Shown here in pieces: positions 5,598 to 62,879 of a DNA stretch of 64,000 bases. Source of the DNA: Patellaria atrata CBS 101060 (taxonomy: Eukaryota); contig MU006091.1 of assembly GCA_010093705.1 (NCBI GenBank), positions 1,674,001-1,738,000 on the forward strand. The letters run 5' to 3'. Below the pieces are notes generated by a model. It did no database searches. It was given only the letters and a program-made list of their open reading frames with translations, and was not told the origin of the DNA. How positions within the stretch are numbered: position 1 is the first letter of the stretch; each line of letters starts with the position of its first letter. A program made the translations under genes and the position numbers.

Positions 5598-7717
5598 ATG
5601 CGCGTGTCGACGTTGTTAGGGAGTGTTATTACGCTGGCCAGCGCTGGTAAGAAATCCCCTTTTATGTAGGAGGAGTGTCTAGTACTAAATATATTCCATA
5701 GTCTTCGCACAGTCCGTGTCTTATACCGACCCAGCTACGAGAATTGTTTACCAATCTTATACCAATTCAGATGGCATTTCGTTCCGCATTGCCCTGCCCC
5801 AAGAAGTGTCCACCAACTATGATGCTATCCTCCAGATCGTCAGCCCCGTGTCCAAACCATGGGTTGGGTTTGCATGGGGAGGCACCATGGTGTTTAATCC
5901 ATTGACACTTGGGTGGGCTAATGGTGCCGGCGTTACTTCCTCTTCAAGATTCGCATTGTGAGCTGTGTGTACTCTGCTTTGGGAGACATCTCAGACTGAT
6001 ATGCACTAGTGGTCTCAACACACCAGGTGCCTACGATGGGGAGACCCTCATCCCAATGAAGGGTTCAGGCACGAACAGCACCCATTGGACCATGACAGTT
6101 CTGTGCAAAGGATGCACCAACTGGACCGACAATGAGAACAACCCATATCTGTTGCCCGGAACCAGCACCTCCGTGACATTCGCATGGGCTGTAGGAAACT
6201 CCCCAGTCTACGAGCCCGCAAATAACCAATCGTATTTCGATGTCCATCAGAAATATGGCAAATGGACTCACAATCTGAACGCTGCTCGCAACTCACAGTT
6301 TCAGGGTTGGGTTACAGCAAATGCTCAACCCGCTACTACACCTGGAGGTCCGACAAGCACATCCACCAGTGCCGCCCCAATCTCCACAACCTCAAGCGCC
6401 GTGGTTGCAGGACCTTCAGGGGCTGTCCCAAGCTCTTGCGGTGCTCCTAACCCAAGATACAACCCAGTGCTCAAATCTGGATGGAAGGCTACCAAAGTCT
6501 TAGGCGGCATGACTAACCCCCGCTCTATCGTCTTCGATACCGCAGGTAACATGCTCGTCGTCCAATCCGGCAGGGGTATCTCCATCCACGGCATGTCTGC
6601 CAACGGCTGCGCGTCCGACACCAAGATGCTTATCTCGCAAAACAATCTCAACCACGGTATTGCATTCAGTGTTGATGGAAAGTATCTCTATGCCAGTTCC
6701 GCAACCCAAGTGCTAAGATGGAACTATGATGCTGCATCAAAGTCAGTGCAAGGAAGTTCTACCGTTGTTGTAAAAGGCATGTACCAAGGTATCCATACCA
6801 CACGTACATTGCTTATCGCCCCTCATCAACCCAACCTACTCTTGGTCTCTCACGGTTCCTCTTCGAACTGGGATTACCCAGTTAGCAACCCGACATCTGT
6901 ACCTCGCTCTGTTGTTAAGGTCTTCGATTTGAGCAAGGCACCAAGCGGTGGCTTCGACTGGATTCGTGACGGATGGTTAGCCGGATATGGTCTTAGAAAC
7001 GGTGTTGGTATCGCTTTTGATAATGGAAATATGTGAATCATCTTAACCTACCACTTTACTGTACTATGACTAACATAAACTAGGTTGTGGGAAGTCGAAA
7101 ACTCCGGCGACGATTTCACCCGCCGCGTTAACAACAACAACGTAGACATCCATATCGACAACCCGGCCGAAGAACTCAACTACATCGGCGACGTAACCAA
7201 GGACAACAGGAAGTGGTTCGGCTACCCGACATGCTTCACCGTCTGGCAGCCCCGCCAATTCACCGACACCACCTTCAAGGTTGGCGACCAGTTCGTCGTC
7301 GCGCCCAATAATACCTACAAGGATTCCAACTGCGTCGGCTCGTCTACTCAAGCCTCTCTCTCCTTCCAGGCTCACTCTGCCCCGATCGATCTCAAGTTCG
7401 ACTCCACCAGCAGCAATCTGTTCATCACCTTCCACGGCTCGTGGAACAGACAGCCGACGACCGGCTTCAAGCTCATCAATGTGCCGTTTACAAAGGCCGC
7501 GAATGGCGAATACAGACCCGTGGCGAACCCGGATAGCAACCAGGGTTGGGAGGATATCATGACGAACCCAGATGTAACGAGGTGCGTAGGTAACGGACCC
7601 GTGATGAGCCAGGGATGCTTCAGACCCGCTGGGTTGGGCTTCGATAAGAGCGGAAGATTATATATGACGAGTGATACCACGCAGGAGGGTGAGATTTGGG
7701 TGCTCGGGAAACAGTAG
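5598..7717 (+). CDS. Secreted AA8 (CDH-type cytochrome b) + AA12 (PQQ-dependent sugar dehydrogenase) two-domain protein
   Basis: Signal peptide MRVSTLLGSVITLASA; introns 5647-5701, 5958-6009, 7033-7083. Cytochrome domain with GFAWGGTM (Met ligand) and FDVH (His ligand), then a Ser/Thr linker. Beta-propeller motifs HTTRTL, GLRNGVG, NPAEELN, HSAPIDLKF, FHGSWNR. Confidence 0.9.
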
Positions 7718-57820: not shown

Positions 57821-58972
57821 ATGCCTAGGGTGTATCCGACAATTGACGGCAAACCATCGAGCTCTCTCTCTCCATCCATCGTAGAGTCAATTGCTGGCTT
57901 TTCTGCTGGTGTAATGGCGACATTGGCCGTACATCCTTTCGATGTCCTTAAAACGCGCCTTCAATGTATGCTCGAATATACAACAATCAGCATGTGGATC
58001 TAACTTGCGCCTTAGTGGATCAGAATTATCAATCGAAACCAGGTGAATCTATCCGAATACTTCGCAATATCGTCCGCAATGAGGGTAGCTATGGCGCCCT
58101 GTACCGCGGTCTTATGCCGAACATGATCGGTAATTCTGTCAGTTGGGCATTATACTTTCTATGGTGGGTTTATTTCAGTGGCAATCCCGATCCATATTCC
58201 TCTGACACTTGAAGTGCAGGTATCGCAATTTCAAAGATGCCTTCCAAGAGTATAGAGGCGAGGGCGGTCGCTTGACATCTTTGGATTATTTCCTTGCCTC
58301 CGGAACATCAGGTGAGGGTTGCGTCAGGTCATGACCCTAAACACACTCTAATAGCATATATAGGTGTTATGACAGCAATCTGTACTAATCCAATATGGGT
58401 AATCAAGACGAGAATGCTCTCGAGTGGCCGCAATGCCCCCGGAGCATACCGCAACATCTGGCACGGTGTCACTGACATATATGGCAAGGAAGGCGGGGCC
58501 GGGTTCTACAGAGGGCTTTTACCATCCCTTTTCGGAGTATCTCATGGTGCTATTCAATTCATGGCCTACGAGCAGTTGAAGCATTACCGGGGCTCGAAGA
58601 TAGGAGGCGAATCCAAACTTAGCAACTTCGACTACCTCTATCTGAGTGCGCTTTCCAAGATCTTCGCGGGTAGCATAACATACCCTTATCAAGTCGTCCG
58701 TTCGCGGTTGCAGACCTATGATGCTCAACTTTCGAAGCGTTCTGCGCGAGATGTTGTACACCAGGTCTGGAAAGGAGAAGGCTGGCGTGGATTCTACAAA
58801 GGGTGCGATTTCCCGCCAGCATACATTCAAGGATTTACGAGCATGTGTTAACCATTTTAGACTTGCTCCGAATATTATCCGAGTCCTACCGTCAACATGC
58901 GTAACATTTCTTGTATACGAGAATACCAAGTTCTATTTACCCCGCTTCTGGTCGCCAGAGAAAAATCTCTAA
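57821..58972 (+). CDS. FLX1: Mitochondrial carrier, FAD/folate transporter-like
   Basis: Three PxDxxKxR-type repeats (HPFDVLKTRLQ, NPIWVIKTRM, YPYQVVRSRLQ), SWALYFLWY, VSHGAIQFMAYE, RVLPSTCVTFLVYE. Four introns. Confidence 0.9.
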
Positions 58973-59616
58973 AGGATGCAGTTTGAAACTGCGAACATCA
59001 TCTGTAATTATACAACCGTGTTTGGAGAATTGGTGCAGCCGGAACCAGCGTATTGTGTAGATACCCAGGACGCTTGAGTGGTACTGTATTTCGTAAAGTT
59101 AAGCCATTCTATGATCGCAATAGGAGTTGTCTGTCAAATTCATGGAAGGGTTCTGGAGAGCAGGTGTGCTTGCACTCTGTTTATCCTGACGGAGCATTGA
59201 TCTCTTTCATTCACCTGTGTCCAGATGATGAACGGCGTGTACAGTACTTATGATCGGATATGATTGCTCCTTGCGAGTTGCCAAATATCAAATATCACCA
59301 TCTACTCTCTTACTTGCAGTGCTGTATATCGATTGCGACCGCCTTCAACAACACTCTCGTATTTTTCATACAAGCTTCCACGCGTAATGAAGTAGCTCTA
59401 GAGTGTTGTAAAGAAGCTTGAATGATGCTGATGTGGTTGTATGCGCCAAGCAATAGAGATCAAGACCTATCTGGTACTATAATTAGAACTAGCCGACCCA
59501 CACAATAAATGCCAAAGGGAAAAATCATATCCGGAAATCGGCCCTCTGTTACCTCATTGTTGTGGTAATTCTTACTTATCTATTATATGTCTATTCACGG
59601 GCCGGCGAATAAACAA

Positions 59617-59768
59617 GCCTTCATAGCTCAGTTGGTAGAGTAATTACTCCCCCTTCTTCACCTTTTCGGCTTGAAATCAGCCCACTAACATTGTCAGGCG
59701 TTTCACTAGTAAAGATCAGGAAATACACTGGTATGAAAAGGTCATCAGTTCGATTCTGATTGAAGGCA
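59617..59768 (+). tRNA. tRNA-Thr(AGT) with a canonical 37/38 intron (59712-59732) and an additional 58-nt D-arm insertion with spliceosomal-intron signals (59640-59697)
   Basis: Acceptor GCCTTCA/TGAAGGC; D-stem GCTC/GAGC after removing 59640-59697; anticodon stem TTTCA/TGAAA with loop CT-AGT-A/A; T-arm ATCAG-TTCGATT-CTGAT. A and B boxes intact; oligo-T terminator follows. Confidence 0.9.
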
Positions 59769-59774
59769 TATCTA

Positions 59775-59791
59775 TTTTTTTGTTTTTTTTT
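59775..59791 (+). terminator. RNA polymerase III oligo-dT terminator of the tRNA gene
   Basis: TTTTTTT-G-TTTTTTTTT starting 7 nt after the discriminator base. Confidence 0.8.
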
Positions 59792-61676: not shown

Positions 61677-62879
61677 TCAATCACTATCATCATCGCTTCC
61701 ATATCCAACCAAGGGCCCTGAAGGTTTCTGGACTGGCTGTGACGTTGAGAATTTCACTGGCGTTCCCAACATCTGGTTCTTCAGAGTTGCTAGAACGGAA
61801 CCTGACAATATGCCACCATTTTCTATTGCCTGAGGCTCCTTGATTTCATACTCTCTCCCAGCATTGCTCTCCTCAATCATCAATAACTGCTCATCAGTGA
61901 GTGCTTCACCATCCCCATGCTCTAACGCAGCCTTTTCTTTGGCATACCAAACATCATCCGAAGCTTCGTAGCCTTGCAATCCAAAACTACCTTCGATCTT
62001 CCGCCGCTTCTTCTGTTCGGGGTCTCGTCCTTCAATCTCAGCGACGTAGTCTGCGGGTAGTGCTCTTCTTATGGCTTCAGCGGCCTGCTCTTCTATCTTT
62101 CTCGCCTCTCTCTTTTGCGCCTGCGGGTTTGGATCTACTGTCGCCCATCGCACATTAAGGACTTCATTATGATCTAGCGCTTGATGGGCCATGGCCTCTT
62201 TCGCAAACTGTGAATTCGCTTCGTTGGTGTAGGTTACGAATGCAACACCACGTGCATTCAGAACGCGTATACGGTCTACTTGGCCCCATTCTTGAAAATG
62301 GCGGGCGACGATTTCTTCGATATCGTCAGTTACATGGATACGACCTACGTATAGCGTGCGATTTTGTCTCATAAAGCTGCCCACACCTCCCATATCATCC
62401 CGGTAGTCGCTGTGCTTGTCGCGCCCGAAGCAGTCGACGTTCGGATTGTATAGATCATGAAGGCCTGGTAGCCTGTGCAGATATTCGCATTCCTGACCCT
62501 TGGGACATAAGCCCCGCGCGAAGAACAGACAAAAGTAGCTTCCGGGTACACGGTCTGCACGGGTGTAACCGCTGTCGCGAGCAATGTTACAGCGTGAGGG
62601 AGCCGCAGTTTTTGAAATGTATTTGTCTTCACGATCGCCGCCCGACCATTTGTTATACCAGATATTGAAGATGGTACCAGTTTGTGGCGGAGGTTCGGAT
62701 TTGAAAGTACTGGGATCGACTTGAGGACGAGCCGGGCGCCTCTTTTTGCGGATGATCTTCTTAACTTTCTTCTCTGGGTTGGTGGTTGTAAGAGCGGTTG
62801 ATGGAGGTGGTGAAGCGGTTTCAGGGAGCGGAGATGTCGTTGATGTGGGAAGTACGGGAACTGCCTCTACTTCAGCCAT
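61677..62879 (-). CDS. CWC2: Pre-mRNA splicing factor Cwc2 (Torus/CCCH zinc finger + RRM)
   Basis: RPARPQ, FNIWYNKWSGG, CLFFARGLCPKGQECEYLH, DCFGRDKHSDYRDDMGGVGSF, AQFAKEAM-like NSQFAKEAM, LNVRWA. Confidence 0.97.
   Translation of the reverse strand: MAEVEAVPVLPTSTTSPLPETASPPPSTALTTTNPEKKVKKIIRKKRRPARPQVDPSTFKSEPPPQTGTIFNIWYNKWSGGDREDKYISKTAAPSRCNIARDSGYTRADRVPGSYFCLFFARGLCPKGQECEYLHRLPGLHDLYNPNVDCFGRDKHSDYRDDMGGVGSFMRQNRTLYVGRIHVTDDIEEIVARHFQEWGQVDRIRVLNARGVAFVTYTNEANSQFAKEAMAHQALDHNEVLNVRWATVDPNPQAQKREARKIEEQAAEAIRRALPADYVAEIEGRDPEQKKRRKIEGSFGLQGYEASDDVWYAKEKAALEHGDGEALTDEQLLMIEESNAGREYEIKEPQAIENGGILSGSVLATLKNQMLGTPVKFSTSQPVQKPSGPLVGYGSDDDSD

What the first reader, a model, noticed from the sequence alone, without database searches (positions are those of the whole stretch)
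59581..59791. One small Pol III-type gene that would need two splicing machineries, with an intron compatible with Pol III
Seen: the same tRNA keeps a typical 21-nt endonuclease intron after position 37 (59712-59732), whose ACTGGT can pair with the anticodon-region ACTAGT. The D-arm insert lies just 3' of the A box (TAGCTCAGTTGG), leaving it intact, and only lengthens A-B box spacing. Its longest T run is T4 (59663-59666), below the T5-T6 usually needed for fungal Pol III termination. A TATA-like TATTATAT sits about 30-36 nt upstream and a T7/T9 terminator downstream. Inference: since eukaryotic SEN recognises the folded tRNA body, spliceosomal removal would have to come first, coupling Thr-codon decoding to spliceosome activity. 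Alternative: the tRNA is cut from a Pol II read-through transcript (FLX1 upstream and PTH1 downstream are on the same strand).
Basis: partly seen in the sequence, partly recalled or inferred. Interest (0 to 1): 0.75.

Follow-up and report, generated by a model that had tools for sequence, protein, structure and literature searches.

The report
tRNA-Thr gene with two intron types
A fungal threonine tRNA gene carries an ordinary tRNA intron plus a second insert in its D arm that looks exactly like a messenger-RNA intron, so this tRNA probably needs the spliceosome as well as the tRNA-splicing enzyme, which I found described in no paper I could search.

Summary
Window 59617-59768 (+) is a tRNA-Thr(AGT) gene in three pieces. 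A 58-nt insert (59640-59697) lies in the 3' strand of the D stem. A 21-nt intron (59712-59732) lies at the canonical 37/38 site. Cutting out the 58-nt insert in silico gives a perfect cloverleaf.

The insert has GTAATT, CACTAAC 9 nt before CAG, and the size of this genome's mRNA introns. Chance gives this about 1.5 in 100,000 times.

Two distinct metagenomic relatives carry a diverged tRNA-Thr(AGT) with an insert at the same place. They also carry a 13-nt canonical intron and a third GTAAGT..ACTAAC..TAG insert at 47/48. All 21 stem pairs are kept, 7 of them by changes on both sides.

Best reading: a working tRNA gene that needs the spliceosome first and the tRNA endonuclease second. It is probably a Pol III unit, with TATA at -33 and T7/T9 at +7/+15.

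Not shown: any RNA. The only runs found were DNA. Gene copy number is unknown.

The "Pol III-compatible intron" point is true but not special: 17 of 19 candidate mRNA introns here also lack T5.

The scan noted similar tRNA inserts before on other DNA.

The parts
59581..59588 (+). TATA-like box TATTATAT, -36 to -29 from the mature 5' end
   Evidence: Read. TATA starts at -33 here and at -36 in both relatives. TATA-like words have P of about 0.014 per 15-nt span in this window.
59617..59639 (+). Exon 1, tRNA positions 1-23: acceptor 5' strand, D stem 5' strand, D loop, first two bases of the D stem 3' strand
   Evidence: ARAGORN on the in-silico spliced gene. Rfam tRNA match.
59624..59635 (+). 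A box TAGCTCAGTTGG (positions 8-19), intact
59640..59697 (+). 58-nt spliceosomal-type intron between tRNA positions 23 and 24 (GTAATT...CACTAAC...CAG)
   Evidence: Relatives carry an insert at the same place.
59663..59666 (+). T4, the longest T run inside the gene
59683..59689 (+). Branch-site motif CACTAAC. The branch A is at 59688, 9 nt before the 3' splice site, and the first AG after it is the splice site.
   Evidence: Sequence read.
59698..59711 (+). Exon 2, tRNA positions 24-37, including anticodon AGT at 59708-59710
59712..59732 (+). 21-nt canonical tRNA intron at 37/38 (endonuclease type)
   Evidence: ARAGORN. Constrained fold with an anticodon-intron helix.
59733..59768 (+). Exon 3, tRNA positions 38-73, including the discriminator A
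59748..59756 (+). B box core GTTCGATTC (from position 53). 112 nt lie between the A-box end and the B-box start.
59775..59791 (+). T7 (59775-59781), G, T9 (59783-59791): a Pol III-type terminator at +7 and +15

Best explanation
This is a working nuclear tRNA-Thr(AGT) gene of a filamentous ascomycete-type fungus, interrupted twice by two different kinds of intron.

Inferred pathway:
1. The unit is probably transcribed by RNA polymerase III from its own TATA-like box and A and B boxes, and stops at the T7/T9 run.
2. In the nucleus the spliceosome removes the 58-nt GT..AG intron from the D stem (between positions 23 and 24). This lets the D arm and the tRNA elbow form.
3. Only then can the tRNA-splicing endonuclease and ligase remove the 21-nt intron at 37/38. 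In yeasts this happens after export, on the mitochondrial surface.

Shown here: the anatomy, the splice signals, the fit to local mRNA introns, the existence of diverged relatives with the same layout, and structure-preserving evolution of the exons.

Inferred, not shown: transcription, the polymerase, actual splicing and its order.
For: 1. Removing 59640-59697 in silico gives a perfect cloverleaf tRNA-Thr(agt) with a canonical 21-nt intron. The mature 73-mer folds to the cloverleaf as its minimum-energy structure.

2. The insert carries GTAATT, CACTAAC and CAG, and the first AG after the branch A is the splice site. Its length of 58 nt and its branch distance of 9 nt lie inside the ranges of 19 candidate mRNA introns of the same window: length 47-99 (median 55), branch distance 9-24 (median 12).

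3. Chance is low: 3 of 200,000 shuffles and 10 of 127,884 window 58-mers show these signals.

4. One metagenome scan gave 3 loci, which are 2 distinct sequences. L001 equals L003 over 1947 bp, and L002 is 88% identical to L001. Both hold a tRNA-Thr(AGT) with a 52-nt insert at 23/24 (GTAATT..TACTGAC..YAG), a 13-nt insert at 37/38, and a third 51-nt insert at 47/48.
- The third insert was not part of the search pattern. It begins GTAAGT or GTAAGC, has ACTAAC about 10 nt before TAG, and has unambiguous ends.
- Its removal restores the variable loop AGGTC, which the window gene has uninterrupted.

5. The window and relative mature tRNAs differ at 17 of 73 positions. All 21 of 21 stem pairs are standard in both. 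7 pairs changed on both sides and 1 on one side.

6. Between L001 and L002 the exons differ at 0 of 73 positions and the three inserts at 9 of 116 (Fisher p = 0.013). The flanks differ at 65 of 600 (p = 0.0006 against the exons).

7. Pol III signs: T7 and T9 lie at +7 and +15 (P of about 0.005). TATA is at -33 here and at -36 in both relatives. No T run longer than 4 lies in the gene.

8. Precedent: the S. pombe U6 gene, a Pol III gene, has an intron removed by the spliceosome, and many fungal U6 genes have such introns (PMC5855946, section 14).

9. Order of splicing:
- TSEN contacts the D arm, the D stem and the elbow (PMC10539383).
- SEN of S. cerevisiae needs the mature domain (PMC10275265, section 12).
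- SEN is cytoplasmic in both budding and fission yeast (same paper, section 14).
Against: 1. No RNA evidence exists. The two runs found are DNA contigs, near-identical to the window and perhaps its source.

2. The search pattern itself demanded GT after exon 1 and AG before exon 2 at this position. The GT..AG ends and the shared position of the relatives' D-arm insert are therefore true by construction. Relatives without an insert, or with other ends, could not be found or counted.

3. The 5' splice site GTAATT has T at +5, where 15 of 19 candidate local introns have G and 1 of 19 has T. In the predicted fold of the precursor it lies in a GAGU/ACUC hairpin.

4. The A-B box spacing is 112 nt here, and 149 nt in the relatives by my sum of the lengths. 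Both exceed the 31-93 bp natural range quoted for S. cerevisiae.

5. The relatives have only T4 runs (+16, about +81, about +92) and no T5 or longer within 400 nt downstream. If T4 stops Pol III in such fungi, the T4 inside this intron could cause early termination. In S. cerevisiae T4 alone gives no release in vitro, but a nearby hairpin or Sen1 can make it work (PMC9278858).

6. A same-strand protein gene lies upstream both here (stop at 58972, 645 nt away) and in the relatives (390 nt away). Pol II read-through is therefore not excluded.

7. Absence of T5 in the intron is not informative, because 17 of 19 candidate mRNA introns also lack it.

8. The copy number of tRNA-Thr(AGT) in this genome is unknown.
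Confidence: 0.6

Rival explanations
1. The same gene and the same two splicing steps, but the precursor is made by RNA polymerase II. It could be read-through from the upstream carrier gene or its own non-coding transcript. It would be spliced co-transcriptionally, and the tRNA would then be cut out by RNase P and RNase Z.
For: - A same-strand gene ends 645 nt upstream here and 390 nt upstream in the relatives.
- The relatives have no T5 or longer run within 400 nt downstream.
- The A-B spacing of 112 nt (149 nt in the relatives) is beyond the natural yeast range of 31-93 bp.
- Recalled, not from a call: spliceosome recruitment is normally coupled to Pol II and the cap.
Against: - T7 and T9 start 7 and 15 nt after the gene, with P of about 0.005.
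- TATA lies at -33 or -36 in all three sequences.
- The A and B boxes are intact.
- The flanking genes differ between the window and the relatives, so no particular host transcript is conserved.
- S. pombe U6 shows that a Pol III transcript can be spliced.
Confidence: 0.2
2. This copy is a dead or dying tRNA gene. An insertion disabled it, and other intact tRNA-Thr(AGT) copies do the work.
For: - No expression data exist.
- Copy number is unknown.
- The 5' splice site is weak, with T at +5.
- An earlier scan note (e1-7501899, unchecked) describes a tRNA-Gln copy whose intron is spliced two bases off.
Against: - The cloverleaf after excision is perfect.
- All three splice signals are present at odds of about 1.5e-5.
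- Diverged relatives keep the layout, with 21 of 21 stem pairs intact and 7 compensatory pairs.
- Between two relatives the exons differ at 0 of 73 positions against 9 of 116 in the inserts.
- The terminator and the TATA box are intact.
- The insert is not a repeat in the window: the longest other match is 11 nt.
Confidence: 0.1
3. The D-arm insert is removed by the tRNA-splicing endonuclease through a bulge-helix-bulge-like structure, as with the ectopic tRNA introns of the red alga Cyanidioschyzon merolae and of archaea. The spliceosome is not involved.
For: Ectopic and multiple tRNA introns in a eukaryotic nucleus are known from C. merolae (PMC3728597, abstract seen in the listing). There, position alone does not imply a spliceosomal intron.
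Against: - No bulge-helix-bulge can be drawn. In the predicted fold the 5' junction lies inside a 4-bp hairpin stem, and the two junctions are not held in 3-nt bulges around a 4-bp helix (and my reading of the sequence).
- The insert instead has a GT start, a branch site at 9 nt and a YAG end.
- The relatives' third insert has a textbook GTAAGT..ACTAAC..TAG.
Confidence: 0.04

Closest known systems
mRNA-type (spliceosomal) introns in fungal U6 snRNA genes (S. pombe: Tani and Ohshima 1989; many fungi: Canzler et al. 2016), as reviewed in PMC5855946 section 14 (passages read)
   Same: Both are short GT..AG introns with a branch site, inside a small structured non-coding RNA gene read by Pol III. 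For S. pombe U6 the intron is removed by the spliceosome. [quoted passage not shown]
   Different: The host here is a tRNA, which that review does not list among RNAs with such introns (it names U1, U2, U5, U6 and rRNA). The tRNA also keeps an endonuclease-type intron, so two machineries are needed. U6 sits in the spliceosome's active site, which explains reverse splicing into it; a tRNA does not.
Spliceosomal introns in fungal U3 snoRNA genes (PMC5832005, passages read)
   Same: Both are normal spliceosomal introns inside an independently transcribed small RNA gene, placed in a structured 5' region. For U3 they were shown experimentally in S. cerevisiae and N. crassa, according to that paper.
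   Different: The RNA class differs. No second, non-spliceosomal intron is involved.
Canonical eukaryotic tRNA introns at 37/38, removed by SEN/TSEN and a ligase (PMC10275265 sections 11, 12 and 14, passages read)
   Same: The 21-nt intron at 59712-59732 is of this kind in position, in length (14-60 nt in budding yeast) and in its pairing with the anticodon.
   Different: The 58-nt D-stem insert is at another position and has no such structure. That review states that eukaryotic tRNA introns lie between N37 and N38.
Ectopic and multiple introns of nuclear tRNA genes in Cyanidioschyzon merolae (PMC3728597, abstract only, listing)
   Same: Both are nuclear tRNA genes with more than one intron, including positions outside the anticodon loop.
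   Different: Those introns are tied to the bulge-helix-bulge motif and the tRNA endonuclease (my recall beyond the abstract). Here there is no such motif, and spliceosomal signals stand in its place.

Membership tests
Spliceosomal U2-type GT-AG intron | GT at the 5' end with an extended 5' splice-site consensus | tested here: inconclusive
   GTAATT. GT and A at +3 and +4 fit, and T at +6 fits. T at +5 is rare: 1 of 19 candidate local introns has it, against G in 15 of 19. The same GTAATT stands in both relatives. The boundary can slide by 1 nt.
Spliceosomal U2-type GT-AG intron | Branch-site motif (CTRAY) a short distance before the 3' end | tested here: met
   CACTAAC, with the branch A 9 nt before the end. 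The local range is 9-24 nt, median 12. The relatives have TACTGAC and AACTAAC about 10 nt before the end (my count on the sequences).
Spliceosomal U2-type GT-AG intron | YAG at the 3' end, being the first AG after the branch point | tested here: met
   CAG at 59695-59697. No AG lies between 59688 and it.
Spliceosomal U2-type GT-AG intron | Length typical of the host's introns | tested here: met
   58 nt, against 47-99 nt (median 55) for 19 candidate introns. Those candidates are heuristic and were not verified by RNA or homology.
Spliceosomal U2-type GT-AG intron | Removed as a lariat by the spliceosome, with exons joined exactly | not testable with these tools
   No RNA run was found.
Canonical eukaryotic tRNA intron (SEN type) | Lies between positions 37 and 38 | tested here: met
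   ARAGORN reports intron insertion position 37-38 and length 21.
Canonical eukaryotic tRNA intron (SEN type) | Intron pairs with the anticodon region, with the 3' splice site in a bulge next to the anticodon stem | tested here: met
   The constrained fold has 5 pairs (32-36 with the intron) and the 3' site in a 2-nt bulge, at -23.2 against an unconstrained -25.3 kcal/mol. The classical register (position 32 with intron -3, and a 3-nt bulge) is possible as a single C-G pair only.
Archaeal or red-algal type ectopic tRNA intron (bulge-helix-bulge) | Both junctions in 3-nt bulges separated by a 4-bp helix | tested here: not met
   The predicted folds of the precursor put the 5' junction inside a hairpin stem. 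I could draw no 3-4-3 motif from the sequence.
Pol III type 2 (tRNA-type) transcription unit | Intact A and B boxes | tested here: met
   A box at 59624-59635, B box from 59748.
Pol III type 2 (tRNA-type) transcription unit | A-B spacing within the range TFIIIC accepts | tested here: inconclusive
   The spacing is 112 nt. The natural range quoted for S. cerevisiae is 31-93 bp (PMC11724288). The tolerance in this fungus is unknown.
Pol III type 2 (tRNA-type) transcription unit | Oligo-T terminator just downstream, and none inside | tested here: met
   T7 at +7 and T9 at +15. The longest internal run is T4. In the relatives only T4 runs follow the gene.
Pol III type 2 (tRNA-type) transcription unit | Occupied and transcribed by Pol III | not testable with these tools
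   No expression or ChIP data could be reached.
tRNA pseudogene | Broken cloverleaf or lost promoter or terminator, and neutral decay | tested here: not met
   The cloverleaf is perfect after excision. 21 of 21 pairs are kept against the relatives. Exon changes are 0 of 73 against 9 of 116 in the inserts between two relatives.

The most novel reading that the evidence does not exclude
An essential-class tRNA is made from a Pol III transcript that must pass through the spliceosome before the tRNA endonuclease can act. This layout is old and maintained by selection in more than one fungal lineage: the relatives need three splicing events, two of them spliceosomal, for one 73-nt tRNA. tRNA supply would then be wired to spliceosome activity, and spliceosomal introns would be able to colonise and persist in tRNA genes.
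Probability: 0.45. Interest if true: 0.88.

Novelty: new variant of a known kind. Interest (0 to 1): 0.75.

Why it matters

A tRNA that needs the spliceosome would break that division. It would also:
- add tRNAs to the short list of small RNAs with mRNA-type introns (U6, U3, U1, U2, U5);
- give a second natural case, beside U6, of the spliceosome working on a probable Pol III transcript;
- offer a simple system for asking how introns are gained in very short, highly structured genes.

There is a practical side. Such genes are missed by standard tRNA finders. ARAGORN in its default mode and Rfam at window scale both missed this one. Fungal tRNA gene counts may therefore be incomplete.

Tried and rejected
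- **Whole genome.** None is held. I could not count tRNA-Thr(AGT) copies or look for other split tRNA genes.
- **RNA evidence.** No RNA holder was listed. The two runs found are DNA contigs of 15-66 kb, identical to the window, with no joints. This says nothing on expression.
- **Standard finders.** ARAGORN default found no tRNA in the window. With long introns allowed it mis-called tRNA-Cys with a 74-nt intron. Rfam at gathering threshold on all 64 kb found nothing. Only the local search found the tRNA.
- **Bulge-helix-bulge for the D-arm insert.** Rejected (and the sequence).
- **Insert as a repeat or mobile element.** The longest other match in the window is 11 nt.
- **T-run avoidance as a sign of selection for Pol III.** Rejected as uninformative, because 17 of 19 candidate mRNA introns also lack T5.
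- **Pattern scans of prokaryotic genomes and viral contigs.** 0 hits each. This is a weak control, since the exons are eukaryotic.
- **Synteny.** The relatives have different neighbours (NadN-type nucleotidase upstream), so flanks give no orthology.
- **Earlier-notes look-ups.** By place, by sequence and by relatives, nothing was found for this locus.
- **Literature.** Of these, searches were aimed at prior descriptions of spliceosomal introns in tRNA genes. Judged by titles and abstract starts, none listed such a paper. The one doubtful hit, PMC3879985, was checked by passages and is irrelevant. Subscription journals are not covered.
- **First intron heuristic.** It gave 54 raw candidates and was replaced by a stricter one: 41 raw candidates collapsed to 19 clusters.

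Full report
**What is in the sequence**

Window 59617-59768 on the + strand holds a tRNA gene in three pieces.
- ARAGORN in its default mode sees nothing in the window.
- Rfam at gathering threshold on the whole window also sees nothing.
- A local Rfam search matches the tRNA model end to end at 42.4 bits (E 7.6e-08), with a 90-nt gap in the middle.
- I cut out 59640-59697 in a script and ran ARAGORN. It returned a perfect 73-nt tRNA-Thr(agt) with a 21-nt intron at 37-38.

The pieces are:
- exon 1: 59617-59639 (positions 1-23);
- 58-nt insert: 59640-59697;
- exon 2: 59698-59711 (positions 24-37);
- 21-nt intron: 59712-59732;
- exon 3: 59733-59768 (positions 38-73).

- A box at 59624-59635, 4 nt before the insert;
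- T4 at 59663-59666 as the longest internal T run;
- TATTATAT at -36 to -29;
- T7 and T9 at +7 and +15.

The neighbours are a mitochondrial-carrier gene upstream and a peptidyl-tRNA hydrolase gene downstream, both on the + strand. A Cwc2-like gene lies on the - strand beyond. The name FLX1 was not tested.

**The D-arm insert looks like a spliceosomal intron**

- It starts GTAATT. It has CACTAAC with the branch A 9 nt before a terminal CAG, and that AG is the first after the branch point.
- The junction can slide by one base, so GT..AG is one of two equivalent readings.
- I collected candidate mRNA introns of the window by a heuristic. It required GTR, CTRAY 6-25 nt before YAG, at least 60 open codons on both sides, and an in-frame stop inside. 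41 raw candidates collapsed to 19, unverified by RNA.
- These candidates are 47-99 nt long (median 55) and have branch distances of 9-24 nt (median 12). The tRNA insert fits both ranges.
- Its one oddity is T at +5 of the 5' splice site, which 1 of 19 candidates shares, against G in 15 of 19.
- Chance is low: 3 of 200,000 shuffles of the insert and 10 of 127,884 window 58-mers carry the three signals.
- The insert is not a repeat in the window.
- I could draw no bulge-helix-bulge. In the predicted fold of the precursor the 5' junction lies in a 4-bp hairpin stem.

**The second intron is an ordinary tRNA intron**

With the cloverleaf enforced, positions 32-36 pair with the intron's 3' part (five pairs, one of them G-U). 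The 5' site lies in a loop and the 3' site in a 2-nt bulge. The energy is -23.2 kcal/mol, against -25.3 for the unconstrained optimum.

**Relatives**

One scan of metagenome contigs, using exon 1 + GT, a gap, and AG + exon 2, gave three loci. L001 and L003 are the same sequence (100% over 1947 bp). L002 is 88% identical to L001. That makes two distinct relatives, close to each other and far from the window.

The pattern forced GT..AG and the position. Those two features are therefore not independent evidence, and genes without an insert could not be counted. The following features are independent of the pattern:
- The same extended GTAATT, a TACTGAC branch site about 10 nt before YAG, and a length of 52 nt.
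- A 13-nt insert that I place at 37/38. ARAGORN calls tRNA-Thr(agt) on both spliced relatives but places the 13 nt differently: at 33/34 in L001, and with no intron reported in L002. I prefer 37/38 because it keeps A37, which I recall is needed for t6A in tRNAs that read ANN codons.
- A third 51-nt insert at 47/48 that was not searched for. It starts GTAAGT (GTAAGC in L002), has ACTAAC about 10 nt before TAG, and has unambiguous ends. Its removal restores the variable loop AGGTC, exactly what the window gene has uninterrupted. The window gene thus serves as the intron-less allele for that site.
- The mature sequences of window and relative differ at 17 of 73 positions. All 21 of 21 stem pairs stay standard in both. 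7 pairs changed on both sides and 1 on one side.
- Between L001 and L002 the exons differ at 0 of 73 positions, the three inserts at 9 of 116 (p = 0.013), and the flanks at 65 of 600 (p = 0.0006 against the exons).

The inserts behave as introns, and the exons as a tRNA under selection. This argues strongly against a dead gene.

**Which polymerase**

For Pol III:
- T runs of 6 or more are rare here: 24 on both strands of 64 kb. Two of them sit right after the gene (P of about 0.005 for a 25-nt span).
- TATA lies at -33 here and at -36 in both relatives.
- The A and B boxes are intact.
- The Pol III gene for S. pombe U6 has an intron removed by the spliceosome (PMC5855946, section 14).

Against Pol III, or open:
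- The A-B spacing is 112 nt here and 149 nt in the relatives (my sum of the lengths). The natural range quoted for S. cerevisiae is 31-93 bp (PMC11724288, introduction).
- The relatives have only T4 runs within 400 nt downstream.
- A same-strand gene lies upstream in both cases.

On T4: in S. cerevisiae in vitro, T4 gives very weak pausing and no release, T5 is intermediate and T6 is efficient. A hairpin close by, or Sen1, can make T4 work (PMC9278858, passages). The lack of T5 in the intron is no sign of selection, since 17 of 19 candidate mRNA introns also lack it.

**Order of the two steps**

- Human TSEN touches the D arm, the D stem and the elbow (PMC10539383, passages).
- S. cerevisiae SEN needs the mature domain and measures from it (PMC10275265, section 12).
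- A 58-nt insert in the D stem sits on that recognition surface.
- The SEN complexes of both budding and fission yeast sit on the cytoplasmic face of mitochondria (same paper, section 14).
- If that holds for this fungus, the nuclear spliceosome must act first by geography alone.
- The 37/38 intron here forms no true bulge-helix-bulge. I recall that such a motif would allow cleavage independent of the mature domain, and it is not available here.

All of this is inference. No intermediates were seen.

**Known or new**

I used all ten paper searches, seven of them aimed at prior descriptions. None listed a paper describing a spliceosomal intron in a tRNA gene. One doubtful hit was checked and is irrelevant.
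- The U6 review lists such introns for U6, U1, U2, U5 and rRNA, not for tRNA.
- The tRNA review states that eukaryotic tRNA introns lie between N37 and N38.
- Subscription journals are not covered.

This scan's own earlier notes (AI notes, unchecked by me) report similar inserts in other tRNA genes of other fungi, and in a tRNA-His gene of this same genome. One of them reports RNA support. The scan has therefore found this kind of thing before on other DNA.

What this locus adds:
- the coexistence of both intron types in one gene;
- a diverged relative with three introns;
- structure-preserving exon evolution.

**Verdict**

- Two machineries, and spliceosome first: likely.
- Pol III: probable, not shown.
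- Coupling of Thr decoding to splicing: open, because copy number is unknown.

I rate it a new variant of a known kind, namely an mRNA-type intron in a small, probably Pol III-read RNA gene. Interest is 0.75.

Noticed in passing
L001 1380-1568 (-) and L002 1189-1377 (+): The metagenomic tRNA-Thr(AGT) gene is 189 nt long for a 73-nt tRNA and is split by three inserts: 52 nt at 23/24, 13 nt at 37/38 and 51 nt at 47/48. The first and third look spliceosomal. The 47/48 insert is absent from the window gene, so this site shows intron presence and absence between lineages.
   Followed up: yes
window 59638-59649: The exon 1/insert junction lies inside a perfect 12-nt palindrome (self reverse-complement match). 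As RNA it is a 4-bp hairpin that would hide the 5' splice site. It is not kept in the relatives, so it is probably chance.
   Followed up: partly
window 59626-59641: In the unspliced RNA the first two intron bases (G, U) can stand in for positions 24 and 25, so a D-arm-like hairpin can still form. Rfam aligned it that way. The same GTAATT start is kept in the relatives. Whether this serves early processing is unknown.
   Followed up: no
window 61677-62879 (-): A Cwc2-like splicing-factor gene (Torus domain, RRM and CCCH zinc finger) lies about 2 kb downstream of the split tRNA gene. This is most likely a coincidence.
   Followed up: no
L001 and L002, 60-150 nt upstream and 20-200 nt downstream of the tRNA gene: The flanks next to the relatives' tRNA gene are better conserved between the two relatives than the 88% average over the loci: 255 of 300 positions upstream and 280 of 300 downstream are identical. 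No open reading frame or RNA family was assigned to them.
   Followed up: no
window 7033-7083 (+): A candidate mRNA intron also has T at +5 of its 5' splice site (GTGAAT), with an ACTAAC branch site. Weak +5 sites may therefore be tolerated in this genome.
   Followed up: no
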